Origin: Paracoccaceae bacterium
GTDB taxonomy: Bacteria > Pseudomonadota > Alphaproteobacteria > Rhodobacterales > Rhodobacteraceae
Length of the DNA: 64,000 nucleotides
Direction of reading: 5' to 3'
NCBI GenBank assembly: GCA_041633555.1
Contig: JBFKFZ010000001.1
Location: 20,259 to 84,258, forward strand
Part shown: positions 1-37,888 of the stretch, in pieces
Numbering within the stretch: position 1 is the first letter of the stretch
Layout of the letters: every line of letters starts with the position of its first letter
Translations under genes and position numbers: made by a program
Notes under the pieces: generated by a model
Told to the model about the DNA's origin: nothing
What the model saw: the letters and a program-made list of their open reading frames with translations, nothing else
Databases searched by the model: none

Positions 1-1943
1 AGGACATCCGAGATGTCCGGCACGACGCGATCGTGCGCTATTATGACAATCAGCGGATGCCAGACGGGCAGGTCTATCTGGTGATGGACTATGTCGACGG
101 GCCGGGCCTGGACAAGAAGCTGCTGGCTGGCGGCATGCCTGCCGACGACCTGTTGGTGATAGGCGCCCGCGTTGCCGAGGGGCTGATCGCTGCGCACAAG
201 CGCAACATCGTGCACCGCGACCTTTCGCCCGACAACATCATCTTGCGCAACGACGATCCTGCCGATCCGGTGATCATCGATTTCGGCATTGCCAAGGATA
301 CCAATCCCGGCGCCGAAACAATCGTGGGCAACGAGTTTGCCGGAAAATACGCCTATGCCGCGCCGGAACAGCTGAGCGGCAATACCGATGCCCGCTCGGA
401 CATCTATTCGCTCGGCGCACTGCTGCTGGCGGCGTTTCGCGGCACAAAGCCGGAGATCGGCACGAACCCGATGGAAGTGGTGCGGAAGAAATCTGAACCC
501 GTCGATACCGAGGGCGTCCCGGAGCCGCTGAAATCGCTGATCGCGCGCATGTGCGAACCCGACCCCGCCAAGCGCTTTCAGACGGCAGATGCGGTTCTTG
601 CGGCGATGAAGTCGACCGGTCGGGTGGCCGTCAGCGAAACCGAAGACGCGACCGTCGTGGTCAATCCGAAGGCCGGCGCCAAAGGAGGAGCGCAGCCCAC
701 CGCCAAGGAGGCGAAGGCATCTGACAAGAAGAAATCCGGACTATTCGTGCCGCTGCTTGCTGTCGTACTTCTCGCGGCAATTGGCGCGGGGGGGTATTTC
801 GGCGGGTTCTTCGATGCCGTTCTGGGGCCGAAATTGCCGGTTGCAGACCCCTATGCGCTGGTCGTGGTGAAAACGGCCGACCAGCCTCCGCGCGCCGCCG
901 GGAATGTTCCGTCCGCCGACACCCTTGCCGCGCTGACCGGATTGATTGAGGCCGAGGGCGGCGCGGCGGAACTTGTCCTGGCAAGCGGCGAAATCAGCGA
1001 AAGCTGGGGTGAGTCGATGCTGGAGCTGGCTCGCATGGTCACCGAACTTGACGAATACCGCATGGTGATCGAGGGCGATCAGGTGCTGGTAACAGGCACG
1101 ACGACGAATAAGGTTCTTCAATCAACGATGACAGAGACGCTCGACGTCGCATTCCCCGGCGATCTGGTCGGGGCGGTCGATATCACCCTCGGGCCGCTGG
1201 TGCTGCCGCCGGGCCAGATCACGCCGCTGCTGGACAGGTTTGCGAATTGCGGCCCGCTGGAACTGGTGGCGCCGCCGCGAATTGGCTACGCGATCTCGGA
1301 TGCCATTGTGGTCAGCGGCAAGCTCGCCGATGCCAAGTCGCGGCTCGATCTTGCCAATGCGATCATCGACATTGCCGGCGATCGGCAAGTCGCTGTCGAG
1401 GCCGAGATCCTGAGCCCTGACCTCTGCCAGATCGAGGCGGCACTTCCCAAGGCACCTCTCGGCGGGTTCGAGGTGCGGTTCGGCTTTGGCGACCGGCCCG
1501 ACCGAAACACGACGGGCCGCTACTTCGTCGGCGAGAACCCGGTGATAGACGTGGTCGTGCCGGGCCGGGTCACCGACGGGTTCATCTGGGTATCCGTGCT
1601 GGACGTGTCGGGCAATGTCTTCCACCTGCTTCCCAATCTCAGTCGTCAGGACAACAGCATCACCTCGCTCCGCAATGGCCAGACCGGAGATTTCCGGCTG
1701 CGCGTCGCCTTCAGCCAGGCCGAAGCGACGGACAGCTCAAAGATCGCCTTTCTGGTCGATGACACGACGCTTGGCAAAAGCAAGATCATCGTGCTGCATT
1801 CCGACCGCGACATGTTCAACGGCGTGCGCCCGACGACAGAATCCGCCGCAAGTTACGCACAGGCACTACGGGACGCACTCGCAACAGGTGGCTTCAATGT
1901 CCGCTCGCTCGACACCGCCATCCTGACGACGGCGGAGAAATAG
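1..1943 (+). CDS. ppkA: Ser/Thr protein kinase, PpkA-like T6SS kinase, 5' end cut by the window edge; one TM segment then a ~370-aa periplasmic region
   Basis: Frame is open from nt 3. Hanks kinase motifs HRDLSPDNIIL, DFGIAKD, YAAPE. TM segment LFVPLLAVVLLAAIGAGGYFGGFF. Convergent with pppA (stops 2 nt apart), next to tagF/tssM. Confidence 0.85.
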   Translation, partial: DIRDVRHDAIVRYYDNQRMPDGQVYLVMDYVDGPGLDKKLLAGGMPADDLLVIGARVAEGLIAAHKRNIVHRDLSPDNIILRNDDPADPVIIDFGIAKDTNPGAETIVGNEFAGKYAYAAPEQLSGNTDARSDIYSLGALLLAAFRGTKPEIGTNPMEVVRKKSEPVDTEGVPEPLKSLIARMCEPDPAKRFQTADAVLAAMKSTGRVAVSETEDATVVVNPKAGAKGGAQPTAKEAKASDKKKSGLFVPLLAVVLLAAIGAGGYFGGFFDAVLGPKLPVADPYALVVVKTADQPPRAAGNVPSADTLAALTGLIEAEGGAAELVLASGEISESWGESMLELARMVTELDEYRMVIEGDQVLVTGTTTNKVLQSTMTETLDVAFPGDLVGAVDITLGPLVLPPGQITPLLDRFANCGPLELVAPPRIGYAISDAIVVSGKLADAKSRLDLANAIIDIAGDRQVAVEAEILSPDLCQIEAALPKAPLGGFEVRFGFGDRPDRNTTGRYFVGENPVIDVVVPGRVTDGFIWVSVLDVSGNVFHLLPNLSRQDNSITSLRNGQTGDFRLRVAFSQAEATDSSKIAFLVDDTTLGKSKIIVLHSDRDMFNGVRPTTESAASYAQALRDALATGGFNVRSLDTAILTTAEK

Positions 1944-12124: not shown

Positions 12125-12132
12125 GTCCAGCC

Positions 12133-14274: not shown

Positions 14275-14305
14275 GATGACCACCCTTTCCGACGCTTCGC
14301 TCCAA

Positions 14306-26945: not shown

Positions 26946-27974
26946 TTACTCATCGACCAGGCCTCCGATCAAATTGACATTCTCGATGCCGTTCGGGGCC
27001 ATATCCTTGACGATCGTCAGAAAATCAGCGCTGACCAGCCGTTTCGCCCGCGTCAAAAGGATCGGCACCGGGCTGGAGGGTTCTGCCCGCTTGTAATAGG
27101 CGATGATCCTGTCGAGCGCATTCTGCACATCATTGGGAGAGTTGATGGCCCCGACGCCACCGCCGGCCGCCTTCGCGCCGGCAGGGGCGGCTGCCGGTTC
27201 ACCGGCTTCGGCCCCGGCCTCGACCCCTTCGACTTCAACGGCATCACCGGCCACCGGCTCCAGCCGGGCGATGACCTGTCCCAGCAGCTTCATCAACGGG
27301 TCCAGTTCCGGCCCGCGCCCGGGAAGCATTTCGTCGAATTTGGCGTTGATCGCGCGTACGTTCTCGAGCGATTGACGGGCTCCGGTCAGTGCGGACTGCA
27401 GAAACTCCTGGGCCGTGTCCTGAAAGGCCGCCGCGATCGAGGAGGAGTCCGGAACTTCCTCGTCATCCTCTCCTGCGGTCGCCTCGCCCTCGGCGATGGC
27501 GATGTCGCGCAGGCTCATCCGCCCGAAGGTGCGGCTGTCGGTCAGCGGCGTGATCCTGATGCCGCGCAATATCGTATCGGGTGCGGCGAGCGACAGAATC
27601 ACGTTGATCCGCTGTGTCGGATCATCGTCATCATCGGCATCGAGCTGCGGGTGGCAGGTGTCCCAGTAGCGCTCCAGGCAGCCCCTGACATAGGCGGTTC
27701 CGTCGGCAAAGCCGGGAAAGCCCCGAAGACGCAATTCCGACATCGACAGAAACACGCCGGCCCGCAGGTCGTGGCTCTGTTCCAGCACCGCCAGAGCGGC
27801 CCCTGTCACTTCCTTGAAATCGGGATCTTCCGCGGCGATGATCTTGTCCCCGGCCTGACGCTCTTCGCCCGGCTGCGCCGCCAGTTCCAGGGTCATGAAG
27901 GCAAGATCGTAGACCATGTCCTCGCCACTTGGGTTTTCGTCGCCGTGGCTCTGAAGAAGTGCCTCTAGATCCAT
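26946..27974 (-). CDS. tssA: T6SS protein TssA (ImpA N-terminal domain family)
   Basis: ImpA_N-type start MDLEALLQSHGDENPSGEDMVYDLAFMTLELAAQ. First gene of the operon. Confidence 0.9.
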   Translation of the reverse strand: MDLEALLQSHGDENPSGEDMVYDLAFMTLELAAQPGEERQAGDKIIAAEDPDFKEVTGAALAVLEQSHDLRAGVFLSMSELRLRGFPGFADGTAYVRGCLERYWDTCHPQLDADDDDDPTQRINVILSLAAPDTILRGIRITPLTDSRTFGRMSLRDIAIAEGEATAGEDDEEVPDSSSIAAAFQDTAQEFLQSALTGARQSLENVRAINAKFDEMLPGRGPELDPLMKLLGQVIARLEPVAGDAVEVEGVEAGAEAGEPAAAPAGAKAAGGGVGAINSPNDVQNALDRIIAYYKRAEPSSPVPILLTRAKRLVSADFLTIVKDMAPNGIENVNLIGGLVDE

Positions 27975-28171
27975 TCACCCCCCATCGGGAATTAATCCAC
28001 CAGTTTCCGGTGCTTGACATTACTCAGCGGCAGCCTAGCACAAAAAAACGCGATGGCCAGTATGACAATCCAGACCTTCACCAAATCGCCCGAACCTGAA
28101 ACAAGTCTTGACCGATCCAGTGCCTTGACATTTCATTGCAGCCTGTGAGGAACGATCGTGGGGGGCGACAG

Positions 28172-28588
28172 ATGGGGTTCTCAAGGGCGGTATTGTGTGC
28201 CGCTGCGATCTGTGCCGGCCCGGCGTTCGCGCAGGACGGAAACCTGACGATCGAGCTCAACAAGTTCGAAGATACCGATGGCGGCAACTGCCAGGCGTTC
28301 TTTCTTTACCGCAATGGCACGGGCAAATCCTTCGAGGAATTCGAGATGTCGCTGGCGATCCTCGACACCTCCGGCGTGATCGACAGGCTCTTGACCGTCG
28401 ATGCGGCCCCCCTGCCCGTGGCCCGGACGACGTTGAAACTGTTCGAGATCCCGTCCATCGAATGTGCCGCGATATCGGAGCTTCTGCTGCATGCCATAGA
28501 TGCCTGTCGCCCGCAGAACGAGGATCGGATGGATTGCTTTCCCATCATCGATCTGGTCAGCCGCACCCCGGCTGCCTTGGTCAAATAG
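28172..28588 (+). CDS. Secreted hypothetical protein (138 aa, 4 Cys in the mature part)
   Basis: Signal peptide MGFSRAVLCAAAICAGPAFA/QDG. Stop lies 3 nt before the exbB start. The track start at 28136 is TTG; ATG 28172 is preferred. Confidence 0.6.
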   Translation: MGFSRAVLCAAAICAGPAFAQDGNLTIELNKFEDTDGGNCQAFFLYRNGTGKSFEEFEMSLAILDTSGVIDRLLTVDAAPLPVARTTLKLFEIPSIECAAISELLLHAIDACRPQNEDRMDCFPIIDLVSRTPAALVK

Positions 28589-28591
28589 GTC

Positions 28592-29215
28592 ATGCTCGAA
28601 GGCCTGTTTGACTCGCTCGGCACCGGCGGGCCGATCATCATCATACTGCTGTGCATTTCCTTGCTGTCGGTGGTCCTGATCATCGCCAAGACCCTGCAAC
28701 TGCTGCCCGTGCGTGGCGGCGCCAAGCTGCGCGATGCCGCATTTGCCAAATGGAGAGAGGGCGAGCGCGACGCCGCCCGATCCCTGCTTGCCGGTGGCAG
28801 ATCCCCGGCGGACCGGGTCACGACCTTCGCGATGGACGGAACTCTCCGCGGCCTGCCCCGCGCCCCGCTGGAGGCGGAGGTCGAGCGCCAGGGCAATGCC
28901 GAGGTCGAGGCAATGTCGCGGCATATCCGGCTGCTCGAACTTGTCGCGATGATCTCGCCGCTGCTGGGGCTTCTGGGAACCGTCTTGGGCATGATCCAGT
29001 CGTTTCAGGAACTGGAACTGGCGCAAGGCGCGGCCAACGCCTCGGTCTTGGCAGGCGGTATTTGGCAAGCGCTTCTGACCACCGCCGCTGGCCTGATCGT
29101 CGCGATCCCGGCGGCGATTGCGGCCAGTCTGCTGAGCGCAAGGATCGACGCCGCCGCGCATCTCATCGAGGGCGCTGTCGGCCGGTTCTTCCTGGAGCTG
29201 GACACCAAGAGCTGA
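28592..29215 (+). CDS. MotA/TolQ/ExbB-family proton channel protein
   Basis: Three TM helices; conserved LELVAMISPLLGLLGTVLGMIQSF and GIWQALLTTAAGLIVAIPA. Confidence 0.9.
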   Translation: MLEGLFDSLGTGGPIIIILLCISLLSVVLIIAKTLQLLPVRGGAKLRDAAFAKWREGERDAARSLLAGGRSPADRVTTFAMDGTLRGLPRAPLEAEVERQGNAEVEAMSRHIRLLELVAMISPLLGLLGTVLGMIQSFQELELAQGAANASVLAGGIWQALLTTAAGLIVAIPAAIAASLLSARIDAAAHLIEGAVGRFFLELDTKS

Positions 29216-29228
29216 AGTCCGAAAGGGA

Positions 29229-29648
29229 ATGGCCATGGAGCTACGCCGAGCAAGACCCGCCAAGACCCTGATCTCGCTCGTGCCGATGATCGACGTCATG
29301 CTGATCCTGCTGGTTTTCTTCATGGTCACGTCGAGCTATCTGAACCTCGACATGATGCCGATGGTCGAAAGCGCCGAAGATGCGCCGGCGGCCGGGGCAA
29401 GGGACTCTGCCGCGCCGCTGCTGATCCGCATCGCTGCCGATGGCCGCCCGCACATCCGGGGCCAGCCGCTCGACGCCAGCCAACTGACGTCGTTGATCCG
29501 TTCGCGGCTGACCGAGAGCCCGCTGTCCAGCGTGATTGTCCTTCCATCTGGTGCGGCCACAACGCAGCACCTGGTTTCATTGATGGACACGGCCACACAG
29601 GCGGGGGCGACCCGATTGCGCCTGATCCGGCTGGAGCCGCGGCCATGA
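29229..29648 (+). CDS. ExbD/TolR-family protein (copy 1)
   Basis: N-terminal TM helix with ISLVPMIDVMLILLVFFMV. 139 aa. Confidence 0.85.
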   Translation: MAMELRRARPAKTLISLVPMIDVMLILLVFFMVTSSYLNLDMMPMVESAEDAPAAGARDSAAPLLIRIAADGRPHIRGQPLDASQLTSLIRSRLTESPLSSVIVLPSGAATTQHLVSLMDTATQAGATRLRLIRLEPRP

Positions 29649-30049
29649 AGCTGTGCCGGGTCCGATCGCAACAAAGATCCGAGACGATCATTGCGCTGAT
29701 CGACGTGGTTTTCTTTCTTCTCGTGTTCTTCATGCTGATCGGGCGGATGGACGCCACCGCTCCGTTCGAAGTACACCCCGCTACCGCGGTGACAGGCGCC
29801 GACCTGCCCGCAGGGGGCGCCACGCTCTCGATCAGTGCGGCGGGGGCGCTTGCGCTTGACGGCACGGCCATCGCCGCGCCCGACCTGATGCCAACGCTAG
29901 CAGTCATGCTTGCCGAAAGCCCCGACTTATTGATCCGGGTCAATGCCCACAGGGATGCGCAGCTGCACGGGATCCTGCCGCTGATCGCCGAGATCGAGCG
30001 CGCGGGCGCGCGCGACGTGGTGCTTGTCGTGACGCCGGAGAGATCCTGA
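29645..30049 (+). CDS. ExbD/TolR-family protein (copy 2)
   Basis: IIALIDVVFFLLVFFML. 134 aa. ATGA overlap with copy 1. Confidence 0.85.
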   Translation: MKLCRVRSQQRSETIIALIDVVFFLLVFFMLIGRMDATAPFEVHPATAVTGADLPAGGATLSISAAGALALDGTAIAAPDLMPTLAVMLAESPDLLIRVNAHRDAQLHGILPLIAEIERAGARDVVLVVTPERS

Positions 30050-31503
30050 TGCGCGGCGCGGCGATCTGGGCAATGGCGGGGCTCGGTTCTCTCCTGGCCC
30101 ATCTTGCCTTCTTCGCATTCCTGGACCTTGCGGTATCCCCCGACCCCCTGACCCCGCAGCAGCCGCCTGAAACCCGCATGTCGCTGGATGCCTATCAGGT
30201 CGACAAGCAGGATGCGGTAGCACAATCGACGGCGGGCGAGACGGCGGCCGAGCAGGACAATGCGGGCACAGCGCTAAGTCCCAGCGCCGTCCTACAGTCA
30301 AGGGCGAGGGGCCAGCCGGTCTTTGGCGAGACGATCACCGATGCCGCGCCTCAGGTCGCCGCCATCGCCCCGTCCCGTCCGACGGGCCAGATCGTTTCGG
30401 CTGCCCGCCCGTCCGAGCCCGTCATCCCGGCCGCAAGCCCCGTCGCAACCGCCCTCGCGTCAAGCCCGCCACCTGCGGCCCCGATCCAGGCCGCCGCCCT
30501 GCCCGCGCCGTCAACCAAGGCCGCCACCCAGCCGCTGCCGGCGGTCGCAGTCGATGCGGCGCAGGCCCTTGCCTCGGCGGTCGCTGGACTCCCGCTACCC
30601 GCGATCGCCGCCGAAACCCCACCGCCCGAGGCGCAGGCGATTGTCGGTGTGCCACCGCCCTCGGAAGCGACCACCGCTACATTGGCCTGGAATTTCGGCG
30701 AACGCATCGTCACCGACCCGGCTTCGCTGGCGGTGATCCAGGCCTTCATGGCGCCGGTTGACCTGGCGAGTTCCAACACCAATGCCGGCGATGTCAGGGA
30801 TGGGCTGGCGGCGATCCTCACCGGCGTCGACTGCGCCCGGTTGACCGCCACATTCGTTCCCGAGACCGGCGAACTGGAGCTGCGCGGCCATGTGCCGGAC
30901 CCGGCCATGCAGGCGCCGATCCTGAAGGCGCTGCGCGAGCAGATCGGTGACGGCATCCCGGTGACGGGCAATCTGCTGCACCTGCCGCACCCGCAATGCG
31001 GCGCGCTGAGCGGCATCGCTGAGGCCGGACTGCCGCAATCGACCGACCAGCTGACCAACGCCCTGCTGATCGGCAACAATGCGCAAGCCCGCGAATATGG
31101 CTTCACCGAGGGTCAGCGTCTGGCCTTCGACCTGACCGCGCCTGACTACGATGCGGTGGTCTACGTCGACTATTTTGATGCGGGTGGTCAGGTGATCCAC
31201 CTGATCCCGAACGAGACCGTGCCACTGACGCGGCATCCGGCGAAATCGGGTTTCGGAGTCGGCACCGACAGTGCCGGCGGCCCGAGCCTGAACATCACCA
31301 TCGGGCCGCCCTTCGGGCAGGAAATCGCGGTGGCCTTCGCGGCGTCAACGCCACTTTTCGAGGACCTGCGGCCACTAATCGAACCTGCCGAAACATACCT
31401 GGCGGAACTGAAGCAACGCGTGGCCGAAGCCCGCGCCGCCGATCCCGGCTTCAAGGGCGAATGGGTCTATTTCTTCATCACGACGTCGCCCGCGACCCAG
31501 TAG
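30049..31503 (+). CDS. TonB/TolA-like anchored protein: His-containing N-terminal TM helix, Ala/Pro-rich linker, non-TonB C-terminal periplasmic module
   Basis: TM helix GLGSLLAHLAFFAFL (TonB-like His), ~190 aa of Ala/Pro-rich spacer, C-terminal ~235 aa resembling the periplasmic end of the ppkA product. Start overlaps the exbD2 stop. Confidence 0.7.
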   Translation: MRGAAIWAMAGLGSLLAHLAFFAFLDLAVSPDPLTPQQPPETRMSLDAYQVDKQDAVAQSTAGETAAEQDNAGTALSPSAVLQSRARGQPVFGETITDAAPQVAAIAPSRPTGQIVSAARPSEPVIPAASPVATALASSPPPAAPIQAAALPAPSTKAATQPLPAVAVDAAQALASAVAGLPLPAIAAETPPPEAQAIVGVPPPSEATTATLAWNFGERIVTDPASLAVIQAFMAPVDLASSNTNAGDVRDGLAAILTGVDCARLTATFVPETGELELRGHVPDPAMQAPILKALREQIGDGIPVTGNLLHLPHPQCGALSGIAEAGLPQSTDQLTNALLIGNNAQAREYGFTEGQRLAFDLTAPDYDAVVYVDYFDAGGQVIHLIPNETVPLTRHPAKSGFGVGTDSAGGPSLNITIGPPFGQEIAVAFAASTPLFEDLRPLIEPAETYLAELKQRVAEARAADPGFKGEWVYFFITTSPATQ

Positions 31504-31505: not shown

Positions 31506-33056
31506 TTATTCGCAGCCGCCCTCAGCCCAACGCATGAGGCTATGCTTGAAACTGGCGCCATAGGGATGCGGCTTTTCCAAAGAACGGCTGGCCGAGGCTG
31601 ACAGATAAGTCGTGGCCTGCGTGCAGAGATCCTCGCGGGTCCATTCGTGGCAGTTCGCGCAGGTCTGGCCCTTCCAGAGTTCGTCCGGAATGCCCTCGAT
31701 CGGCGGGAAGATCGGCGATCCGGCGACCAGTTCCTCGATGCTCTTGCCGACAATCTCGGACGTGCCAGACTGAAGTGGTTGGGAAAACAGCACCGGTACG
31801 CCGTGCGGAGGGATCGCAACGGGTTCAATCTCTGGCTCCGGCGTGACGGGCGGTGCCGCAGCTTTGGTGGCCGCCGCTTCGGCCTGAGCCTGCAGGGTAC
31901 GGATCTCGAACCTTGCAAGTTCCGAAAAGACGCCTTCGGGGAATTCTGCCAGATAGTCCTCGTAATCGGCCAGTTGTCCCGTGCGGCGCGCCTGTTCGAT
32001 CAAGTCGGCCTCGCGGTCCGCAGGTGCGGTCGCCTCGGGCGAAGGCTCGGGTGCTGCCGCCACATCCGGCTCGGCAACCGGTTCCTGACCGGACTTCAGT
32101 TCTTCCTTCAGGACGTCGCTGAGCAGTGCTTGGGCGTCTTCTCTGTGCAGCCCATCGGGATAGGATCGCAGGAACAGGAGGATCTGAACCGGATCCCGCG
32201 ATAGCTCGACCGAACGCCAAAGCTGCTGCTCGGCGACTTCCTCCGGGGTCATTTGCCGGCCAGCCTTGAAGACGAAGTCGCTGGTCAACGACGATGTATC
32301 CCACGGCGTCTGCGCGCCGCCGGTTTCCGCGATCACCTTGACCCGCACGTTCTTGAACAGCTGCTCGATGGACAGGTCTTCGCTCATCATCTCGGCGGCC
32401 AATGCACTGGTGAAGGGGCTGTTGCCCTGCACACCGTCCAGCGCGACCGAGCCGGGCGCGGTGGCATAAGCAAGGTAGGTGCCGGTCGGGGCCTTCATCT
32501 CGGCCAGACCATTGTCGTTGAGCGACGGGATCGCTTCGAACGGATTGTTGCGGCAGGCATCGAGGATCACGATGTTGGTGCGGTTCCGCGCCGAGGCCAT
32601 CTGGCGCAGCACGGCCGAGGCTTCCAATGCTACAAGGTCCAGATCGGCGGCGTTGGTCAGGCGCGTGTCGACCGGCAAGAGGTAGTTCGCTCCAAACGAC
32701 TGCACCCCGTGGCCGGCATAATAGAAAAGCCCCACCGTATCGGATCCGCCTGCGCGAAGTTCACTGCCGAAGCCAGAGATCGCCCGCTTCAGTTCAACCT
32801 GCGGCGCATCCGTCAGCAACATGACCCGGAAACCCACATTTTCTAGGCTTTCAGCCATCAGCCTTGCATCATTCACCGGGTTGTCGAGCGGCTCAACCGC
32901 AGTATAGCCGCCATTGCCGATGACAAGTGCAATCCGCTCTTCTGCAACCGCCGGAAGCGTGAGCCACAGCAGTGCTGCAAGCCCGGTGGTTATGCGAAAG
33001 AACAAACTCACGCAGCCACTCTCGCCCGGCATGATGTCAGGATCGGGGCCGTCCAC
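31506..33056 (-). CDS. Exported caspase-family (peptidase C14) protein with a C-terminal CxxCH motif
   Basis: Signal/anchor LAALLWLTLPAVA. Caspase His/Cys dyad contexts FYYAGHG and VILDACRNNPF. Two ...FLRSYPDG.../...YLAEFPEG... helical motifs. CANCH encoded at 31647-31661. Confidence 0.85.
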   Translation of the reverse strand: MDGPDPDIMPGESGCVSLFFRITTGLAALLWLTLPAVAEERIALVIGNGGYTAVEPLDNPVNDARLMAESLENVGFRVMLLTDAPQVELKRAISGFGSELRAGGSDTVGLFYYAGHGVQSFGANYLLPVDTRLTNAADLDLVALEASAVLRQMASARNRTNIVILDACRNNPFEAIPSLNDNGLAEMKAPTGTYLAYATAPGSVALDGVQGNSPFTSALAAEMMSEDLSIEQLFKNVRVKVIAETGGAQTPWDTSSLTSDFVFKAGRQMTPEEVAEQQLWRSVELSRDPVQILLFLRSYPDGLHREDAQALLSDVLKEELKSGQEPVAEPDVAAAPEPSPEATAPADREADLIEQARRTGQLADYEDYLAEFPEGVFSELARFEIRTLQAQAEAAATKAAAPPVTPEPEIEPVAIPPHGVPVLFSQPLQSGTSEIVGKSIEELVAGSPIFPPIEGIPDELWKGQTCANCHEWTREDLCTQATTYLSASASRSLEKPHPYGASFKHSLMRWAEGGCE

Positions 33057-33149: not shown

Positions 33150-34232
33150 ATGTCTTTTTTTGGCCTTGGGAAGTTCATGATGCATTTCGTTCGCCTGTTC
33201 GCGTGTTTGTTCATCTGGTCGCTCGCGACCATGGCACCGGCTCAGGACAATCCGTTCGCCCCCGGCTGGGTGCTGCAGCCAGAGGCCTCATCGCTTCGCT
33301 TTCAGTCGGTGAAGAACCAGTCGAAGATCGAATCTTCCTCTTTCGCCACGATCTCTGGGGAGATCAATCCTTCGGGCAAGGCTGGCGTGAAGATCCTGCT
33401 GGATAGCGTCGACACGAAGATCGATCTGCGCAACGTCCGGATGCGCTTCCTGTTCTTCGAGACGTTCAAGTTCCCCGAAGCCACCATCAGCGTTCAACTC
33501 GATGCAGCCGATATCGCGGATCTGGCGCAAGTCAGGCGCAAGACGATGGTTCTGCCTTACACGATCACCCTGCACGGCATCACCAAGGCGCTGGAAGCCA
33601 ATCTTGCCCTGACCCTGATCGACGATGATCTGGTGGCGGTCTCGACCAACGAACCGATCACACTTGCGGTTGCCGACTTTGCCCTGACCGATGGTCTAGA
33701 GAAGCTCGAAGATGCCGCCAGCGTCGAGATCGTACCCTCGACTACTGTCACATTCGACTTCATTTTCAATCGTTTGCCTGGCGAAGCTGATGCAACTATT
33801 ACGGCGGCCACGACTCCTGAAAAGCCCGCCAGCGTCGCGCTTGAAGCCCAGGGTGATTTCTCGCTGGAAGCCTGCGTCGGTCGGTTCGAGATCCTGTCAC
33901 GTACCGGAAACATCTATTTCGGGCCCGGCTCTGCCCGGCTCACCGCCGATAGCTGGCCACTTCTTGATACGGTCGCCGACATCGTGCAGCGGTGCCCCGG
34001 CCTTGTCATTCAAGTGGGCGGCCATACCGACAGCCTTGGGCCTGACGATGCGAACCAGACCCTGTCCGAACGGCGTGCCGGCTCGGTCGTCACTTATCTC
34101 GCCGGGAAGGGCATCGCCGCTGACCGCGTGATTCCGGTCGGGTTCGGAGAGAAGTACCCTGTCGCCACGAATGATACTCCGAAGGGTCGCGGCCAGAACC
34201 GGCGGATCGAGTTTTCCGTCGGCAACAACTGA
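33150..34232 (+). CDS. Exported YceI-like domain fused to an OmpA/MotB peptidoglycan-binding domain
   Basis: Signal peptide (M)MHFVRLFACLFIWSLATMAPAQ. YceI-like LRFQSVKN...FATISGEI...LDSVDT. OmpA-like IYFGPGSARL...VGGHTDSLG...NRRIEFSV. The start could also be 33177/33180. Confidence 0.8.
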   Translation: MSFFGLGKFMMHFVRLFACLFIWSLATMAPAQDNPFAPGWVLQPEASSLRFQSVKNQSKIESSSFATISGEINPSGKAGVKILLDSVDTKIDLRNVRMRFLFFETFKFPEATISVQLDAADIADLAQVRRKTMVLPYTITLHGITKALEANLALTLIDDDLVAVSTNEPITLAVADFALTDGLEKLEDAASVEIVPSTTVTFDFIFNRLPGEADATITAATTPEKPASVALEAQGDFSLEACVGRFEILSRTGNIYFGPGSARLTADSWPLLDTVADIVQRCPGLVIQVGGHTDSLGPDDANQTLSERRAGSVVTYLAGKGIAADRVIPVGFGEKYPVATNDTPKGRGQNRRIEFSVGNN

Positions 34233-34300: not shown

Positions 34301-37186
34301 ATGAATAGGAGCGAGGAAGAAACCGACGAGCTGAAAAGCATGCTGGCCGTGGCGCGCAAGCGGGTGATCAATTTCGCGGTCTGCCTTGGTCAGAACCACG
34401 AAACCACGGTCTTTGCGATGCATCGGCGCAAATCGCCGGACGTTCTTGGCCGTCAGGTCAAACGCGAGGGCGAGACCACCAAGATCACGACGGGGCAGGT
34501 CCGGCTGAAGGCAAAAACACTGGCCCTGACCTGCATCGAACCGCCTCCGCCCGGCGCGGCGCGCCAGCTGCGGTTGTATTTTCGCGACTTCGGGCTGCCC
34601 TTGAAGATTGACCTCCTCGAGGCCGACGGCGCGGCACTGGAAAGCGACGGCGATGACGATGGCGTCGATGCCAAGGAGATGTTACGGCCCTCGGCCCCGA
34701 AGCCCGGCAAGAGGGCGGCGAAATGGAATGCCTTGCTGCCGGCCTTCGAGCAGGCCGTCGGCAGGGTCGTGGCCGCAAACGGCCCCAAGGCCGGGGCAAT
34801 CCAGTCGGCTTGGGAGGGTGCCAAAGCCGCAGCCGATAAGGGCAAGTACAAATCCGCTCTCGCGGCGGTCAAGAAGATCAAGCCACTGCTTAATGCAAGA
34901 CCCAAGCCAGAGAATGACGGTGCCGACGCAGATGATGGTGGATGGGCCCGAATCGAAGCCCGTCTGCAACAACGGCTGCAAACGGCGCTCGCCGCCTTCC
35001 CCGAGAAGGCGGACAAATGGTCGACCGCACTTGATATGGCCCGGCAGAAGGCCGCGGATGGCGACCTGAAGACCGCCGCGCTGATTGCCAGGAAGCTCTC
35101 TGACGCACTCGAAAAGGCGGGTCGGAACGGCGCAGACACTGCTCCTGCAGATACGCCTGACCTGTCCGCGTGGCATGTCGCGCACGATGCGCTGACAGAG
35201 CGGCTGCGCGGCATCGGTCGGGCCTTCGACACGACACGGCTTGCCAAGCTGCTGATCGCGGCGCGAATCGATCTCGAACGCTCGCCGGAAGAGCTGCCCA
35301 AGGCGCTCGCGATCGCCCAGGAGCTCGACACTGCACTGACCGCCGAGGGCATGGCCTATCTCAGATCTGCCAAGGCCGAGGCCACGTCCGCCCTCGCCAC
35401 CATCCAGACTTACCGGGGGGTTGACGATCATGCCAGTCGCCTCAAGGGCCGACTTTCGACGATGGACAAGGCTGCCAGCCGCACGCCGCCGGATTTCGAG
35501 GATATTCACGCAACTCATGCCGCGATCATGGCCGCCCGTGCCGACCTTCGACCGCTGTCGGACCGGTTCGAGGCCGACTACAACGAATGGATGACAAGGA
35601 AGGCCAACTGGTGCGACAAGCCACTGGCAAAGCTGAAGGATACGGTCGTCAGTGAGAGGAAAGGCAAGATCCAGGGCAACCTCGTCGAAGCTGAACGGTC
35701 GTTGGACCGGGGCGACCTGACCAGGGCGAAGCGGCTGATCACGGATGCGTACTGGGATATCAAAGCGGCGGAGGACATTGTCGAGTCGAAGACCAAGCTT
35801 GTCACAATGAAAAGCCAAGCCGAAGCCGCAATCGGCCAGATCACGGCGGCCTTGTTGGCAGACTACCCTTCCGAATGCGCGGCCCTGAAGGCTGATATCG
35901 ACCTGGCAGCGGCCAAGGAGGTCGCGGGCGATTACTATACCGCATCCCTCATTCTGGCGCCGCTGCCGGCCGCCATCGCGGAGCTATTGGCCCGCCCTCG
36001 CCGCGGAACGTTCTCCGAGCGGCTTGAGACCCTGCAGACTAAGGTCGGCGATGATGCCGAGTTGCAGGCCTTGATGGATCGGGCAAGGTCGGATGACCCG
36101 GTCAGGGCGCCCATGGCCCTTGATGAAGCCGAAGCCCATATTGCAGCTGCCGAGATCCGTGCCGCAATCGCGACAGGCAAAGCGCCGCCGCACGACCAAC
36201 TGAAAGATCTGGCAAGAAGCCTAGAAGGGCGGCGCCTTCTCGACGCGCTGATCTCCGAAGCTTCCGACGAAGCCGTGCCCGGGATCGCCGCTGCCCGGTT
36301 CGGCTTCGACACAAGCCCGGTCGAGCCGGACGGATCAGCACCGCCTGCCCGGGCCGCGGACATGCGAAAGCTCTGCCGGTTGCTTGCCGACGCGCCCGGC
36401 GAAACTGCGGTCCAGACCCGCGACATGCTGACGTTCAAACCAATCGATACGTCGCGAGATAAGGACGAAGGCCATTCGACGAGCCCCGGCCCGGTATTCC
36501 ATTCCGGTATCAGCGGTGCGGTCTACACGTCCGCCTACAATCCGCTGGACAAAGATCTGACCGCCTTTGGCGAAGCGGGCGGAACTGGCCATCTCGACCC
36601 CGATGATCTCGGCACGACGACGAGCAGCGGCGACAACCCGTCCTACGGGCGGTGGGCGGCGATGCACCAGCTTGGGCAGGCGATCAACCGCCGCAAGAAG
36701 TTCATGCAAACCAATGGCCACAAACAAGAATTCTCCGGCTGGCAGGATCATGGCAGGGATCTGTCCGACCTCGCCCGAACTGTCGCAGCGCATTTCGGGA
36801 TCGAGCGGGCCTTCGTCGAACGCGCCATGACAGGGATCAAGACCGAACTGCCCACGAAAGCCAGCCAGTACGATGCCGTGGAACAGACCGCCGAGCAATT
36901 ACAGGCTGGTCATGCCGACTTCCTCGACTGGCTCGGAATGGTGGGTCATGCCGGGCGGATCTGGACTTCTTCCAGCCGGACGGCCACTGCCAGAATCGGC
37001 GCGCGCGTGATCCAGGAAACGTCTCCGGGCCATTGGGTTTCATATGATCATGCGGCACGTGCTAAGGTCGTTTCGGCGGTACAGTTCCGGTCGCCCGGCG
37101 ATTGGTTCGCCGAGCTATACGCGGCCTATTTCACCAATGTCCTGCACCCGTCGCATCCGGCCCGGGACTGGTTGAGCAAGCTGTGA
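34301..37186 (+). CDS. Large hypothetical cytoplasmic protein (961 aa): N-terminal ~100-aa domain shared with the 42088 ORF, Ala-rich ~73-aa helical repeats, C-terminal globular region
   Basis: Long uninterrupted ORF with no TM segment or signal peptide. Recurring xGD(Y/L)xxAxxL motifs. C-terminus contains MHQLGQ and DWFAELYAAYF. Confidence 0.7.
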   Translation: MNRSEEETDELKSMLAVARKRVINFAVCLGQNHETTVFAMHRRKSPDVLGRQVKREGETTKITTGQVRLKAKTLALTCIEPPPPGAARQLRLYFRDFGLPLKIDLLEADGAALESDGDDDGVDAKEMLRPSAPKPGKRAAKWNALLPAFEQAVGRVVAANGPKAGAIQSAWEGAKAAADKGKYKSALAAVKKIKPLLNARPKPENDGADADDGGWARIEARLQQRLQTALAAFPEKADKWSTALDMARQKAADGDLKTAALIARKLSDALEKAGRNGADTAPADTPDLSAWHVAHDALTERLRGIGRAFDTTRLAKLLIAARIDLERSPEELPKALAIAQELDTALTAEGMAYLRSAKAEATSALATIQTYRGVDDHASRLKGRLSTMDKAASRTPPDFEDIHATHAAIMAARADLRPLSDRFEADYNEWMTRKANWCDKPLAKLKDTVVSERKGKIQGNLVEAERSLDRGDLTRAKRLITDAYWDIKAAEDIVESKTKLVTMKSQAEAAIGQITAALLADYPSECAALKADIDLAAAKEVAGDYYTASLILAPLPAAIAELLARPRRGTFSERLETLQTKVGDDAELQALMDRARSDDPVRAPMALDEAEAHIAAAEIRAAIATGKAPPHDQLKDLARSLEGRRLLDALISEASDEAVPGIAAARFGFDTSPVEPDGSAPPARAADMRKLCRLLADAPGETAVQTRDMLTFKPIDTSRDKDEGHSTSPGPVFHSGISGAVYTSAYNPLDKDLTAFGEAGGTGHLDPDDLGTTTSSGDNPSYGRWAAMHQLGQAINRRKKFMQTNGHKQEFSGWQDHGRDLSDLARTVAAHFGIERAFVERAMTGIKTELPTKASQYDAVEQTAEQLQAGHADFLDWLGMVGHAGRIWTSSSRTATARIGARVIQETSPGHWVSYDHAARAKVVSAVQFRSPGDWFAELYAAYFTNVLHPSHPARDWLSKL

Positions 37187-37207
37187 CCCCGACAAAAGGC
37201 GTTGCCG

Positions 37208-37888
37208 ATGTCCCTTTCTGACGCGCAGGATTGTCCCTGCCCTGCTTGCGGAGCCAGTGTACCGGTGGCGTACTATGCCAGCCTGGGTCCCGAGGCGCAG
37301 GAAGAGATTCTCATCGACCGGCTGCAATGCACGACCTGCCCGGATTGCGGGCAGGACTTTCGCACCGAACCTGCATTCACCTATCTCGACCCCGAGGCCG
37401 GCCTCTGGATTGCCGCCCGCCCCGCCGAGGCGCTGGCCGACTGGCAACAGGAAGAAGCCGGCGCACTCGCCGCCTTCGAAGAAATCTACGGCGCCGGCGC
37501 GCCCAAGGACGTGCAAGAAATTGGCGCAGACCTTGCCTCCCGGCTGACCTTCGGCTGGCCAGCATTACGTGAGAAGCTGATGATCGCGGAGCATAGCCTG
37601 AGCGACGTGGCGATTGAGTTGACCAAGCTCGCTATCCTGCGCAACCGGCCCGGCAATCCCATCGCAGAAGGCGTCGAGCTTCGGCTGCTTGATGTTCGTG
37701 GACCCAATCTGGAATTCGGGTGGCTCACCCGCCGTGGGGGGAAACAGCTCGATGTTTTCGAAGCACAGAGAAGGCTTTACGAGTCGATCTTGAAAGATCC
37801 GGCCTGGCAGGAAGCGGCAACCCGGTTGCCCGAGAGAGGGCTGGTCGATCTGCAGCGGCTGTTCATTGCACCTGCAGGACCAACCTGA
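37208..37888 (+). CDS. CpXC-domain (zinc-ribbon) protein
   Basis: Two Cys pairs, CPCPACG and CTTCPDCG, spaced as in CpXC domains. ATG at 37208 (the track start at 37202 is TTG). Confidence 0.7.
   Translation: MSLSDAQDCPCPACGASVPVAYYASLGPEAQEEILIDRLQCTTCPDCGQDFRTEPAFTYLDPEAGLWIAARPAEALADWQQEEAGALAAFEEIYGAGAPKDVQEIGADLASRLTFGWPALREKLMIAEHSLSDVAIELTKLAILRNRPGNPIAEGVELRLLDVRGPNLEFGWLTRRGGKQLDVFEAQRRLYESILKDPAWQEAATRLPERGLVDLQRLFIAPAGPT

What the first reader, a model, noticed from the sequence alone, without database searches (positions are those of the whole stretch)
28172..31503. ExbB-ExbD-ExbD motor operon with a non-TonB output protein and a secreted 4-Cys protein, divergent from tssA
Five tightly coupled genes lie 197 nt from tssA on the opposite strand (gaps of 3 and 13 nt, then two stop/start overlaps). 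They encode a signal-peptide protein with four cysteines, one ExbB, two ExbD paralogs, and a protein with a TonB-like His-containing TM anchor (SLLAHLAFFAF) and a long Ala/Pro spacer. That last protein lacks the TonB C-terminal domain. No TonB-dependent receptor or siderophore genes are nearby. The architecture looks like a proton-motive-force-driven stator energising a novel periplasmic effector domain. Its position next to the T6SS suggests an envelope-sensing or T6SS-triggering role, possibly replacing TagQRST.
Basis: partly seen in the sequence, partly recalled or inferred. Interest (0 to 1): 0.7.

Follow-up and report, generated by a model that had tools for sequence, protein, structure and literature searches.

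The report
Proton-driven motor module beside T6SS
Next to a bacterial type VI secretion "nano-weapon" lies a conserved five-gene proton-powered motor whose TonB-like arm ends in a copy of the sensor domain of the kinase that switches the weapon on, instead of the usual TonB domain. This points to an undescribed, energy-coupled control module, but its function is inferred and not tested.

Summary
The genes are g1 (28172-28588), ExbB (28592-29215), ExbD1 (29229-29648), ExbD2 (29645-30049) and a 484-aa anchor (30049-31503). They lie 197 nt from tssA on the opposite strand, with gaps of 3 and 13 nt and two stop/start overlaps.

The anchor has the N-terminal marks of TonB and TolA: an S14-x3-H18-x6-L25 membrane helix and a motor-box-like strand. 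A 180-residue disordered Ala/Pro linker follows. There is no TonB_C domain. Its folded head is a BON-like subdomain plus a DUF4384 beta-sandwich.

The new result is that this head is homologous to the periplasmic head of the T6SS kinase PpkA. hhalign gives 94.5% probability (E 8e-8) against the window's own PpkA. BLASTP gives E 4e-18 against an Azospirillum T6SS PpkA.

The unit occurs in 238 species genomes, and every named one is Rhodobacterales. It is divergent from tssA-tssB-tssC in 67 of 71 informative loci. A periplasmic caspase lies within the flank in 52 of 71.

T6SS reviews and surveys do not mention the unit. The closest published precedent is the vWA-headed force transducers.

Best reading: a PMF-driven TonB/TolA-type force transducer dedicated to post-translational control of a tssJ-less T6SS. 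Function is inferred. It is a new variant of a known kind.

The parts
27975..28171 (.). Divergent intergenic region (197 nt) between tssA and g1. It contains a -35-like CTTGACCG at 28108-28115 upstream of g1.
   Evidence: Sequence read. CTTGACCG is present in 22 of 43 tssA-g1 intergenic regions. The consensus sigma-70 scan found no full promoter.
28172..28588 (+). g1: a 138-aa secreted periplasmic protein with an all-beta (Ig/FnIII-like) sandwich and four invariant Cys. It is the most conserved gene of the unit.
   Evidence: No Pfam or NCBIfam family. 1037 homologues, all unnamed. C40, C98, C112 and C122 are invariant. AlphaFold pLDDT is 78. The best PDB match is IrmA 5ek5, E 1e-4, TM 0.57/0.66.
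28592..29215 (+). ExbB/TolQ-like proton-channel subunit (207 aa, three TM helices).
   Evidence: PF01618 at 100 bits. Scores are far below both the TolQ and ExbB equivalog cut-offs (72.8 vs 221; 52.7 vs 206). The TM2 motif SPLLGLLGTVLGM and the TM3 motif ALLTTAAGLIVAIPA align with E. coli ExbB and TolQ and are conserved in 78 orthologues.
29229..29648 (+). ExbD1 (139 aa) with the TM aspartate D22 (codon 29292-29294).
   Evidence: PF02472 at 68 bits. D22 aligns with E. coli ExbD D25 and TolR D23 and is conserved in at least 97% of 78 orthologues.
29645..30049 (+). ExbD2 (134 aa), a paralogue 29% identical to ExbD1, with the TM aspartate D20 (codon 29702-29704).
   Evidence: PF02472 at 55 bits. 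D20 is conserved in at least 97% of 78 orthologues.
30049..31503 (+). Anchor / force-transducer protein (484 aa): TM helix, disordered linker and folded periplasmic head.
30052..30132 (+). Anchor TM helix (residues 2-28) with S14-x3-H18-x6-L25, the same spacing as TonB S16/H20/L27 and TolA S18/H22/L29.
   Evidence: S14 and H18 are invariant in 81 sequences. Compared with the E. coli TonB and TolA sequences. Helix pLDDT is 85-96.
30178..30207 (+). Motor-box-like segment MSLDAYQVDK (residues 44-53). It resembles TolA SSIDAVMVD and TonB PISVTMVTP at the same distance from the TM helix.
   Evidence: Sequences. Partial conservation (ESRxxLDTYxV). The motor-box concept comes from PMC12204202. This is a resemblance, not a test.
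30133..30678 (+). Ala/Pro-rich disordered linker (residues 29-210), variable in length between orthologues.
   Evidence: pLDDT mostly below 50-55. Ala 24.7% and Pro 16.5%. Length variation in alignment A1.
30688..31500 (+). Periplasmic head (residues 214-484). It consists of a BON-like beta-alpha subdomain bounded by invariant C262 and C317, followed by a DUF4384 beta-sandwich (Pfam residues 352-435). It is homologous to the PpkA head.
   Evidence: pLDDT 85-97. DUF4384 scores 26.1-26.9 bits against a gathering score of 27, and BON_like scores E 0.02. hhalign against the PpkA head gives 94.5%, E 8e-8, over 216 columns. BLASTP against the Azospirillum PpkA head gives 33% identity over 239 aa, E 4e-18.
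31506..33056 (-). Periplasmic caspase-family protease (Peptidase_C14; His in YAGHG, Cys in LDACR) with a conserved C-terminal CxxCH domain. It is convergent with the anchor, and the two stop codons are 2 nt apart. It is a frequent partner of the unit. The true start codon is uncertain.
   Evidence: PF00656 at 131 bits. Junction read. The gene is within 400 nt and convergent in 40 of 71 loci, and within the flank in 52 of 71. Motifs.
33150..34232 (+). Secreted YceI-like + OmpA-like (peptidoglycan-binding) protein, a frequent neighbour of the caspase.
   Evidence: PF04264 and PF00691. Present in 50 of 80 loci.
26946..27974 (-). tssA, the first gene of the divergent T6SS operon (tssA-tssB-tssC-hcp-tagJ-tssE-F-G-clpV...).
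   Evidence: ImpA_N at 89 bits. Rest of the cluster.
33..1943 (+). T6SS Ser/Thr kinase PpkA, with its N-terminus cut by the window edge. It has a kinase domain, a TM segment (nt 738-812) and a periplasmic head (about nt 1101-1886) homologous to the anchor head. Its Cys pair lies in NCGPLEL and DLCQIEA, and it carries the motif DGFIWVSVLDVSGNVFHLLPN.
   Evidence: Pkinase. Translation. Homology. NCBI names some fragments of orthologues 'DUF4384 domain-containing protein'. Coordinates.

Best explanation
The five genes encode a dedicated proton-motive-force motor of the 5:2 ExbB/ExbD type, probably ExbB5 with an ExbD1/ExbD2 heterodimer. The motor drives a TonB/TolA-type periplasmic force transducer, the anchor. 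The anchor docks to the stator through its S-x3-H-x6-L transmembrane helix and probably through a motor-box strand. It crosses the periplasm with a long disordered Ala/Pro linker. In place of a TonB or TolA C-terminal domain it presents a BON-like + DUF4384 head.

This head is a paralogue of the periplasmic sensor head of the T6SS kinase PpkA. I therefore propose that the head binds the same kind of envelope partner as PpkA, or binds the PpkA head itself. That would make the threonine-phosphorylation switch (PpkA/PppA/Fha/TagF) of this tssJ-less, H1-like T6SS depend on membrane energisation or envelope state. In position this input module is analogous to TagQRST, but it is not homologous to it. 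g1, the adjacent periplasmic caspase and the YceI-OmpA protein are candidate partners.

Shown by computation: gene content, motifs, fold, homology of the heads, and synteny. Inferred: motor stoichiometry, force transduction, the binding partner, and any effect on T6SS activity.
For: (1) The stator parts are intact and under constraint. PF01618 and two copies of PF02472 are present. ExbD1 D22, ExbD2 D20 and the ExbB TM2/TM3 motifs are conserved in 78 orthologues and align with E. coli ExbB/ExbD/TolQ/TolR.

(2) The anchor has TonB/TolA N-terminal hallmarks. S14 and H18 are invariant in 81 sequences, L25 is at +7, and a motor-box-like strand is present. A disordered linker and a confidently folded head follow.

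(3) The head is homologous to the PpkA periplasmic head. BLASTP gives E 2e-4 against the window's own PpkA. hhalign gives 94.5%, E 8e-8, over 216 columns, including both invariant Cys. BLASTP gives E 4e-18 against the PpkA in the Azospirillum lipoferum T6SS cluster. PpkA heads of this type sit in T6SS clusters of Rhizobium, Paracoccus, Sulfitobacter and Leisingera.

(4) Synteny. TssA/TssB lies divergently upstream in 67 of 71 loci that have at least 4 kb of upstream sequence. This holds across genera in which anchor identity falls to 38-45%.

(5) On PLSDB plasmids, every roseobacter-type PpkA record has a matching anchor record in the same strain set. In Qingshengfaniella the unit is on another replicon of a T6SS-positive genome.

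(6) The roseobacter T6SS has PpkA, PppA, TagF and Fha, but no TagQRST homologue was seen. It also lacks tssJ (PMC9515649).

(7) There is a precedent for non-TonB heads on SHLS-type transducers next to tolQ plus two tolR genes (PMC12204202).
Against: There are no expression, interaction or phenotype data. The link to PpkA rests on domain homology, which does not prove a shared ligand or heterodimerisation. The cognate PpkA head is only about 23% identical to the anchor head.

Four informative loci (L016, L044, L050, L053) carry the unit with no T6SS gene within 7-8 kb. I could not test whether those genomes have a T6SS elsewhere.

All named occurrences are in one order, Rhodobacterales. Part of the conserved synteny may therefore reflect inheritance of one island.

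Other T6SSs with this type of PpkA head (Rhizobium, Azospirillum, Paracoccus) work without the unit, so it is not a general requirement of such kinases. The caspase association (52 of 71 loci, and kept in the T6SS-less locus L044) could point to a primary function with the protease rather than with the T6SS.
Confidence: 0.5

Rival explanations
1. Structural or assembly helper. The motor-anchor acts like Tol-Pal for the T6SS. It would use PMF to pull on, or remodel, the outer membrane or peptidoglycan where the tssJ-less TssLM membrane complex must be inserted or anchored. This would compensate for the missing TssJ lipoprotein rather than signal to PpkA.
For: Roseobacter T6SS1 clusters lack tssJ. 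No such gene fits in the window cluster, none is annotated in Leisingera or Qingshengfaniella, and PMC9515649 says so. The R. etli cluster has tssJ and lacks the unit. Peptidoglycan-binding OmpA domains occur on TssL and on the YceI-OmpA neighbour. The BON-like subdomain weakly resembles ring-building and BON domains (YscD, DolP).
Against: The tssJ correlation rests on very few independent lineages. To my knowledge, Agrobacterium T6SS also lacks tssJ and has no such unit. This reading does not explain why the head is a paralogue of the kinase sensor domain. No interaction with TssM or TssL has been tested.
Confidence: 0.2
2. T6SS-independent envelope module. The motor, the anchor and the periplasmic caspase (with YceI-OmpA) form their own PMF-dependent periplasmic proteolysis or envelope-surveillance system. 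The system merely travels on the same island as the T6SS.
For: The caspase is convergent with the anchor and within 400 nt in 40 of 71 loci, and lies within the flank in 52 of 71. It stays with the unit in L044, which has no T6SS nearby. DUF4384 is a known fusion partner of bacterial caspases (PMC7475262). The unit stands among unrelated metabolic genes in L016 and L050, and on a housekeeping replicon in Qingshengfaniella.
Against: 94% of informative loci are next to tssA, despite rearrangements downstream of the anchor. The head is homologous to T6SS kinase heads. Caspase-family genes themselves recur inside or beside T6SS clusters next to PpkA in Paracoccus, Sulfitobacter S223, Leisingera, Azospirillum and Qingshengfaniella, so the caspase link does not separate the unit from the T6SS.
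Confidence: 0.2
3. An ordinary, merely divergent TonB-ExbB-ExbD uptake system serving TonB-dependent receptors encoded elsewhere, for example for T6SS-linked metal acquisition.
For: The gene order ExbB-ExbD-ExbD-TonB-like is common in Ton systems (my knowledge). A TonB-dependent receptor lies about 11 kb downstream in one Leisingera plasmid.
Against: No TonB_C match appears at E<=10. No TonB or TolA chain appears among the listed top 50 Foldseek matches, and a profile search of PDB sequences returns nothing. The head is BON-like plus an Ig-like sandwich. No TonB-dependent receptor was found in the window. The Leisingera receptor is separated from the unit by unrelated mercury-resistance genes, and its position is not conserved.
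Confidence: 0.03

Closest known systems
TonB-ExbB-ExbD (Ton system)
   Same: An ExbB-family channel and ExbD-family subunits with the TM Asp. The partner protein has an N-terminal TM helix carrying S-x3-H-x6-L, a motor-box-like strand and a proline-containing disordered periplasmic spacer. The genes are translationally coupled in one operon.
   Different: There is no TonB_C domain and no Ton-box client nearby. The head is BON-like + DUF4384. There are two ExbD paralogues. ExbB scores far below the ExbB equivalog cut-off. The genomic partner is a T6SS.
TolQ-TolR-TolA (Tol-Pal)
   Same: ExbB scores best against TolQ and ExbD1 against TolR, although both are sub-threshold. The motor-box-like strand SLDAYQVD is closest to TolA SIDAVMVD. 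Peptidoglycan-binding OmpA-like proteins are in the neighbourhood.
   Different: There is no TolA domain III and no tolB or pal. The unit is accessory, often plasmid-borne and restricted to a minority of Rhodobacterales, whereas Tol-Pal is a housekeeping system.
vWA-headed motor-driven force transducers (Williams-Jones et al. 2025, PMC12204202)
   Same: [quoted passage not shown] An extra upstream gene is present too (TPR there, g1 here).
   Different: The head fold is BON-like + DUF4384, not vWA. The taxonomic range and genomic client differ (T6SS). That paper mentions neither T6SS nor DUF4384.
TagQRST-PpkA-PppA-Fha threonine phosphorylation pathway of the P. aeruginosa H1-T6SS
   Same: The roseobacter T6SS belongs to the same subtype (group 3, H1-like; PMC9515649) and carries PpkA, PppA, TagF, Fha and TagJ. 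An envelope-located accessory gene set sits at the edge of the cluster. A periplasmic protein related to a kinase ectodomain type exists in both. TagR is COG1262 (FGE-type), according to PMC13584744. FGE-sulfatase and DUF4384 are alternative C-terminal domains of one bacterial kinase family (bioRxiv 10.1101/2025.01.12.632604).
   Different: No sequence homology to TagQ, TagR, TagS or TagT. The unit has a PMF motor instead of an ABC-like TagST. Any action upstream of PpkA is untested.
Other secretion-system-associated 5:2 motors (GldLM/PorLM of the T9SS; SiiAB of the SPI-4 T1SS), cited from my own knowledge
   Same: A MotAB/ExbBD-type proton channel is dedicated to a protein secretion or surface machine.
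   Different: These belong to different families and clients. No T6SS-dedicated motor is listed among accessory factors in the 2026 review PMC13584744.

Membership tests
MotA/TolQ/ExbB proton-channel family (PF01618) | Pfam domain above the gathering score | tested here: met
   100.2 bits against 22.9.
MotA/TolQ/ExbB proton-channel family (PF01618) | Conserved TM2/TM3 motifs with the channel-lining Thr residues | tested here: met
   GLLGTVLGM and ALLTTAAGLIVAIPA align with E. coli ExbB and TolQ and are conserved in 78 orthologues.
ExbB or TolQ proper (NCBIfam equivalogs TIGR02797 / TIGR02796) | Score above the curated equivalog cut-off | tested here: not met
   ExbB 52.7 against 206.2; TolQ 72.8 against 221. 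This is a separate lineage of the superfamily.
ExbD/TolR family (PF02472) | Pfam domain above the gathering score (both paralogues) | tested here: met
   68 and 55 bits against 25.4.
ExbD/TolR family (PF02472) | Protonatable Asp in the single TM helix | tested here: met
   ExbD1 D22 and ExbD2 D20 align with ExbD D25 and TolR D23 and are conserved in at least 97% of 78 orthologues.
TonB/TolA-type periplasmic force transducers | N-terminal TM helix with the SHLS motif (S-x3-H-x6-L-x3-S) | tested here: met
   S14 and H18 are invariant in 81 sequences, and L25 is the majority residue. The spacing is identical to TonB S16/H20/L27 and TolA S18/H22/L29. The last Ser is not conserved.
TonB/TolA-type periplasmic force transducers | Motor-box beta-strand in the disordered stretch after the TM helix | tested here: inconclusive
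   MSLDAYQVD (residues 44-52) resembles TolA SSIDAVMVD and TonB PISVTMVTP and is partly conserved. It is not modelled as a strand in the monomer. No complex prediction was possible.
TonB/TolA-type periplasmic force transducers | Long periplasm-spanning domain II (Pro-rich, disordered or helical) | tested here: met
   Residues 29-210 have pLDDT around or below 50, with Ala 25% and Pro 16.5%. Length varies between orthologues.
TonB family | C-terminal TonB_C domain (PF03544) that binds Ton boxes | tested here: not met
   No Pfam hit at E<=10. No TonB chain among the Foldseek matches. The profile search of PDB sequences returned nothing.
TolA / Tol-Pal | TolA domain III, and tolB-pal downstream | tested here: not met
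   No such domains in the anchor or its neighbours. The downstream genes are a caspase and YceI-OmpA.
vWA-headed force transducers (PMC12204202) | tolQ-like gene + two heterologous tolR-like genes + SHLS transducer | tested here: met
   ExbD1 and ExbD2 are 29% identical.
vWA-headed force transducers (PMC12204202) | von Willebrand factor A head | tested here: not met
   The head is a BON-like beta-alpha subdomain plus a beta-sandwich. There is no vWA Pfam hit.
DUF4384 (PF14326) | Pfam domain above the gathering score | tested here: inconclusive
   The window protein scores 26.1-26.9 bits against 27. Nearly all listed homologues carry a precomputed PF14326 hit, and NCBI names them 'DUF4384 domain-containing protein'.
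TagQRST sensor module of the H1-T6SS | Homologues of TagQ (lipoprotein), TagR (COG1262/FGE-type) and TagS/TagT (ABC-like) | tested here: not met
   None of the five proteins, and no scanned window ORF, matches such families.
TagQRST sensor module of the H1-T6SS | Acts upstream of PpkA to trigger Fha phosphorylation | not testable with these tools
   This needs genetics and phosphoproteomics.
T6SS accessory (Tag) gene set | Conserved linkage to T6SS core genes across taxa | tested here: met
   67 of 71 informative loci. Limited to Rhodobacterales.
T6SS accessory (Tag) gene set | Required for, or modulates, T6SS activity | not testable with these tools
   No function has been described for any roseobacter T6SS (PMC9515649).
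Zorya (ZorAB) anti-phage defence | ZorA/ZorB models and ZorC/D/E partners | tested here: not met
   Only generic-domain hits: ZorA2 at 13-17 bits against a cut-off of 700.

The most novel reading that the evidence does not exclude
A 5:2 proton-driven motor is a dedicated input device of a type VI secretion system. The ExbB-ExbD1-ExbD2 stator mechanically or energetically controls a tethered copy of the PpkA sensor head, which engages the PpkA ectodomain or its envelope ligand. T6SS assembly would then be gated by membrane energisation, or by outer-membrane contact or damage. This would be the first PMF-motor/T6SS coupling and a non-homologous functional replacement of TagQRST. The caspase and the in-cluster voltage-gated-type channel may belong to the same circuit.
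Probability: 0.3. Interest if true: 0.85.

Novelty: new variant of a known kind. Interest (0 to 1): 0.68.

Why it matters
How T6SSs decide when and where to fire is known in molecular detail for only a few gammaproteobacterial systems. For roseobacters, a dominant and ecologically important marine group, no T6SS function or regulation has been described (PMC9515649).

This locus offers a concrete, testable candidate. It is a conserved PMF-driven force transducer whose output domain is a paralogue of the T6SS kinase's sensor. If the link holds, it connects two fields, Ton/Tol-type 5:2 motors and T6SS post-translational control. It would also give DUF4384, a widespread orphan domain on kinases and caspases, its first functional context.

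Even if the T6SS link fails, the unit adds a second non-TonB head type to the newly recognised class of motor-driven periplasmic force transducers.

Tried and rejected
(1) Divergent TonB_C or TolA domain: rejected.

(2) Structural identification of the head by Foldseek against the PDB. Nothing reached E<=1e-3. There were only generic Ig-like, BON and ring-building resemblances.

(3) g1. Its fold gives only a weak match to IrmA. It is unrelated to the anchor head (hhalign probability 0.2%). No function could be derived.

(4) Defence-system membership (Zorya or caspase-based systems): only generic-domain hits.

(5) Shared operator in the tssA-g1 intergenic region. Only a -35-like CTTGACCG was found, in about half of the loci, and there was no consensus promoter hit. 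This says nothing about co-regulation.

(6) Extra gene between tssA and g1 in about 24 loci. The Leisingera and Qingshengfaniella examples are not homologous to each other and have no Pfam family, so the extra gene is not a constant sixth component.

(7) Literature. Eight full-text searches and targeted reads of T6SS accessory-factor, plasmid-T6SS and roseobacter-T6SS papers found no mention of ExbB, ExbD, TonB or DUF4384 in T6SS clusters. Paywalled literature was not searched.

(8) The 961-aa neighbour (34301-37186): no Pfam, NCBIfam or PDB relative.

Full report
**1. Observation**

The region holds five co-directional ORFs on the + strand:
- g1, 28172-28588
- exbB, 28592-29215
- exbD1, 29229-29648
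- exbD2, 29645-30049
- a 484-aa protein, 30049-31503, called the anchor here

I read the junctions directly. g1 and exbB are 3 nt apart. exbB and exbD1 are 13 nt apart. exbD1 and exbD2 share an ATGA overlap. exbD2 and the anchor share a TGATG overlap. tssA (26946-27974, minus strand; ImpA_N 89 bits) starts 197 nt from g1.

Pfam confirms one MotA/TolQ/ExbB protein (100 bits) and two ExbD/TolR proteins (68 and 55 bits). It finds nothing for g1 and a borderline DUF4384 for the anchor (26.1 bits against a gathering score of 27).

g1 has a signal peptide ending in AFA/QD. Its four mature cysteines are invariant in 46 homologues.

**2. Surroundings**

The minus strand from about 1.9 kb to 28 kb is a complete T6SS cluster. 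In order from 28 kb it reads: tssA, tssB, tssC, hcp, tagJ (ImpE), tssE, tssF, tssG, clpV, an Ion_trans channel, a VipA/VipB sheath fusion, vgrG, DUF6931, PAAR, fha, tssK, tssL with an OmpA extension, tssM, tagF and a PP2C phosphatase. A Ser/Thr kinase, PpkA, lies on the + strand at 33-1943 and is cut by the window edge.

There is no room for tssJ. PGAP annotates none in the equivalent Leisingera and Qingshengfaniella clusters. Suria et al. 2022 report that roseobacter T6SS1 clusters are group 3 (H1-like) and lack tssJ (PMC9515649).

Three genes follow the anchor:
- a convergent periplasmic caspase-family protein (31506-33056), whose stop codon is 2 nt from the anchor's
- a secreted YceI+OmpA protein (33150-34232)
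- a 961-aa protein with no detectable family

No TonB-dependent receptor, TonB_C protein or siderophore gene appears among the window ORFs scanned.

**3. The motor**

Aligned with the E. coli proteins, ExbD1 D22 and ExbD2 D20 occupy the position of ExbD D25 and TolR D23. The ExbB TM2 motif (SPLLGLLGTVLGM) and TM3 motif (ALLTTAAGLIVAIPA) match the channel-lining motifs of ExbB and TolQ. These positions are conserved in at least 97% of 78 orthologues extracted from related loci.

NCBIfam scores fall far below the curated cut-offs for both TolQ/TolR and ExbB/ExbD. This is therefore a separate lineage of the superfamily, not the organism's Ton or Tol system.

The two ExbD paralogues are only 29% identical. 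A heterodimeric plug is thus plausible, but it is inferred.

**4. The anchor**

In an alignment of 81 homologues, S14 and H18 are invariant and L25 is the majority residue. The spacing S-x3-H-x6-L is that of TonB (S16, H20, L27) and TolA (S18, H22, L29). About 25 residues further on lies MSLDAYQVD. It resembles the motor-box strands of TolA (SSIDAVMVD) and TonB (PISVTMVTP) (concept from PMC12204202). This is a resemblance, not a test.

AlphaFold2 with 81 sequences gives three regions:
- a confident TM helix at residues 2-28
- a disordered stretch at residues 29-210, which is 25% Ala and 16.5% Pro and varies in length between orthologues
- a confidently folded head at residues 214-484 (pLDDT 85-97)

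The head has a beta-alpha subdomain bounded by the invariant C262 and C317. Pfam BON_like matches it weakly (E 0.02; one homologue has a precomputed hit). A beta-sandwich follows, and this is the DUF4384 part.

Foldseek against the PDB finds nothing at E<=1e-3. The weak matches are Ig-like, BON and ring-building folds, with no TonB or TolA chain. Pfam at E<=10 shows no TonB_C. A profile search of PDB sequences finds nothing.

The protein is thus a TonB/TolA-type transducer at its N-terminus and something else at its C-terminus.

**5. The new link**

A pairwise BLASTP of the anchor against the window's own PpkA aligned anchor residues 368-459 with the extreme C-terminus of the kinase (E 2e-4). 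PpkA has a kinase domain, a TM segment (residues 236-260 of the partial ORF) and a periplasmic region of about 370 residues. That region contains a Cys pair and the motif DGFIWVSVLDVSGNVFHLLPN.

A profile-profile comparison of the anchor family against the PpkA periplasmic family gives 94.5% probability, E 8e-8, over 216 columns. It covers anchor residues 221-460 and superposes both invariant cysteines.

The anchor head is even closer to the head of the kinase in the T6SS cluster of Azospirillum lipoferum 4B: 33% identity over 239 residues, E 4e-18. It matches the heads of T6SS kinases from Rhizobium etli, Leisingera and Paracoccus at E 1e-4 to 1e-8. NCBI already names fragments of these kinases 'DUF4384 domain-containing protein'.

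Kinases with this head lie in T6SS clusters on 61 PLSDB plasmids, among them Rhizobium (28), Sinorhizobium, Paracoccus and roseobacters. The anchor occurs on only 24 roseobacter plasmids.

The output domain of the motor-coupled anchor is therefore a paralogue of the sensor ectodomain of the T6SS kinase. It has been grafted onto a TonB/TolA-type N-terminus in Rhodobacterales.

**6. Distribution and synteny**

A scan of one genome per GTDB species found 238 loci encoding the anchor. Every named record among the best 80 is Rhodobacterales, from the families Paracoccaceae and Roseobacteraceae. The tblastn counts are:

| Feature | Count |
|---|---|
| g1/ExbB/ExbD1/ExbD2 present among the 80 loci | 76-77 of 80 |
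| TssA/TssB divergently upstream, loci with at least 4 kb upstream | 67 of 71 |
| Caspase within the flank, loci with at least 2.5 kb downstream | 52 of 71 |
| Caspase convergent and within 400 nt of the anchor stop | 40 of 71 |
| YceI-OmpA present among the 80 loci | 50 of 80 |

The T6SS linkage holds although anchor identity falls to 38-45% and the downstream genes are rearranged.

The exceptions are L016, L050 and L053, where the unit sits among metabolic genes, and L044. L044 is a second copy in a MAG whose other copy, L069, is T6SS-linked. L044 lacks g1 but keeps the caspase.

In Qingshengfaniella alkalisoli the T6SS is on one plasmid and the unit on another replicon. The unit is therefore separable from the T6SS but co-resident with it.

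The head alone finds 1259 representative clusters at E<=1e-3 and 224 at E<=1e-30 among 1.84 billion representatives.

**7. Caspase theme**

Caspase-family genes lie next to PpkA in Paracoccus alcaliphilus and Sulfitobacter sp. S223, where they are convergent with it, as the caspase is with the anchor here. They also lie near PpkA in Leisingera, beside tssL in Azospirillum, and beside tssA in Qingshengfaniella.

DUF4384 is a known fusion partner of orthocaspases and of one family of bacterial Ser/Thr kinases (PMC7475262; bioRxiv 10.1101/2025.01.12.632604). A functional pairing of caspase and DUF4384 within alphaproteobacterial T6SS loci is therefore likely. Its nature is unknown.

**8. Mechanism proposed**

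Shown by computation:
- an intact stator under purifying selection
- a transducer with TonB/TolA-type docking motifs
- a periplasm-spanning linker
- a head homologous to the PpkA sensor
- strong linkage to a T6SS that has PpkA, PppA, Fha and TagF but no TagQRST and no TssJ

Inferred: the stator converts PMF into force or movement on the anchor. The head engages the PpkA ectodomain or the same envelope ligand, with candidates g1, the caspase and YceI-OmpA. T6SS assembly thereby becomes coupled to membrane energisation or envelope state.

I give this 0.5. The rivals are:
- a Tol-like assembly helper for the tssJ-less membrane complex (0.2)
- a T6SS-independent motor-caspase envelope module that only shares the island (0.2)
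- an ordinary divergent Ton system (0.03, essentially excluded by the domain tests)

**9. Comparison with what is known**

The unit works like Ton or Tol but fails membership of both on the C-terminal domain, and on the equivalog scores of its motor.

[quoted passage not shown] These sit next to a tolQ-like gene and two heterologous tolR-like genes (Williams-Jones et al. 2025, PMC12204202). That paper mentions neither DUF4384 nor T6SS.

The 2026 review of T6SS accessory factors lists no ExbB, ExbD, TonB, PMF or caspase component (PMC13584744). Neither do the roseobacter T6SS survey or the two plasmid-T6SS surveys. PGAP annotates the genes only generically.

I therefore class the unit as a new variant of a known kind: a force transducer with a new head and a new client system.

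**10. Verdict**

The architecture and the T6SS association are supported, and the kinase-head homology strengthens the regulatory reading. The function remains untested.

Interest is 0.68. It would rise to about 0.85 if a PMF motor is shown to gate a T6SS.

Noticed in passing
window 16380-17249 (-): A 289-aa Ion_trans protein lies inside the T6SS cluster, between clpV and the sheath fusion. It has an S4-type voltage sensor (LRGLRVIRAMRLL) and the pore motif FQIMTLESWSMGIVRPV. From my own knowledge, that motif is the signature of bacterial voltage-gated Na+ channels. An 'ion transporter' is annotated at the same position in the Leisingera and Qingshengfaniella T6SS clusters. A membrane-potential-sensitive channel and a PMF motor in one T6SS locus may be related.
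   Followed up: partly
window 31506-31810 (-), C-terminus of the caspase gene: The periplasmic caspase ends in a conserved domain of about 100 aa. It carries a CxxCH motif (CANCH; kept in 46 of 50 orthologues), two more conserved Cys and HP[YF]GG. It has no Pfam family. It could bind haem c or act as a redox or disulfide module.
   Followed up: partly
L086 22291-24195; L087 21171-23084; L085 2212-3711; L083 29367-35489; L093 17108-19129: Caspase-family genes recur next to PpkA or at the edge of T6SS clusters in Paracoccus, Sulfitobacter, Leisingera, Azospirillum and Qingshengfaniella. In three of these they sit with an MBG-domain exoprotein, and in Paracoccus and Qingshengfaniella also with a ShlB/FhaC transporter. 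This association is not listed in the 2026 review of T6SS accessory factors.
   Followed up: partly
window 14602-16383 (-): A 593-aa protein has both VipA (TssB) and VipB (TssC) domains, in addition to separate tssB and tssC genes. This corresponds to the roseobacter-specific 'TssCL' long sheath protein described by Suria et al. 2022, so it is already known.
   Followed up: yes
window 1946-27974 (-), whole T6SS cluster: There is no tssJ gene and no gap large enough to hold one. TssL carries an OmpA-like peptidoglycan-binding extension. This agrees with PMC9515649.
   Followed up: yes
window 34301-37186 (+): A 961-aa protein with no signal peptide and no Pfam, NCBIfam or PDB relative. Weak relatives (24-40% identity) occur in 20 of 80 loci, either downstream of the unit or between tssA and g1. 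It may be a T6SS cargo or adaptor. It is followed by a CpXC protein at 37202-37888.
   Followed up: partly
window 28108-28115 (+): The octamer CTTGACCG, which resembles a -35 box, lies 57 nt upstream of the g1 start. It is found in 22 of 43 tssA-g1 intergenic regions from other loci. The simple sigma-70 scan reported no full promoter.
   Followed up: partly
L091 (NZ_CP042264.1) 11531-14822 versus L092/L093 (NZ_CP042263.1): In Qingshengfaniella alkalisoli the g1-exbB-exbD-exbD-anchor unit is on a different replicon from the T6SS cluster. It sits next to lptCAB and other housekeeping genes.
   Followed up: yes
window 45736-48074 (-): An HWE/HisKA_2 histidine kinase lies next to a sigma-70-family protein that also matches the PhyR sigma2 domain. 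This looks like a general-stress-response pair typical of Alphaproteobacteria, about 14 kb from the unit. No link to the finding was examined.
   Followed up: no
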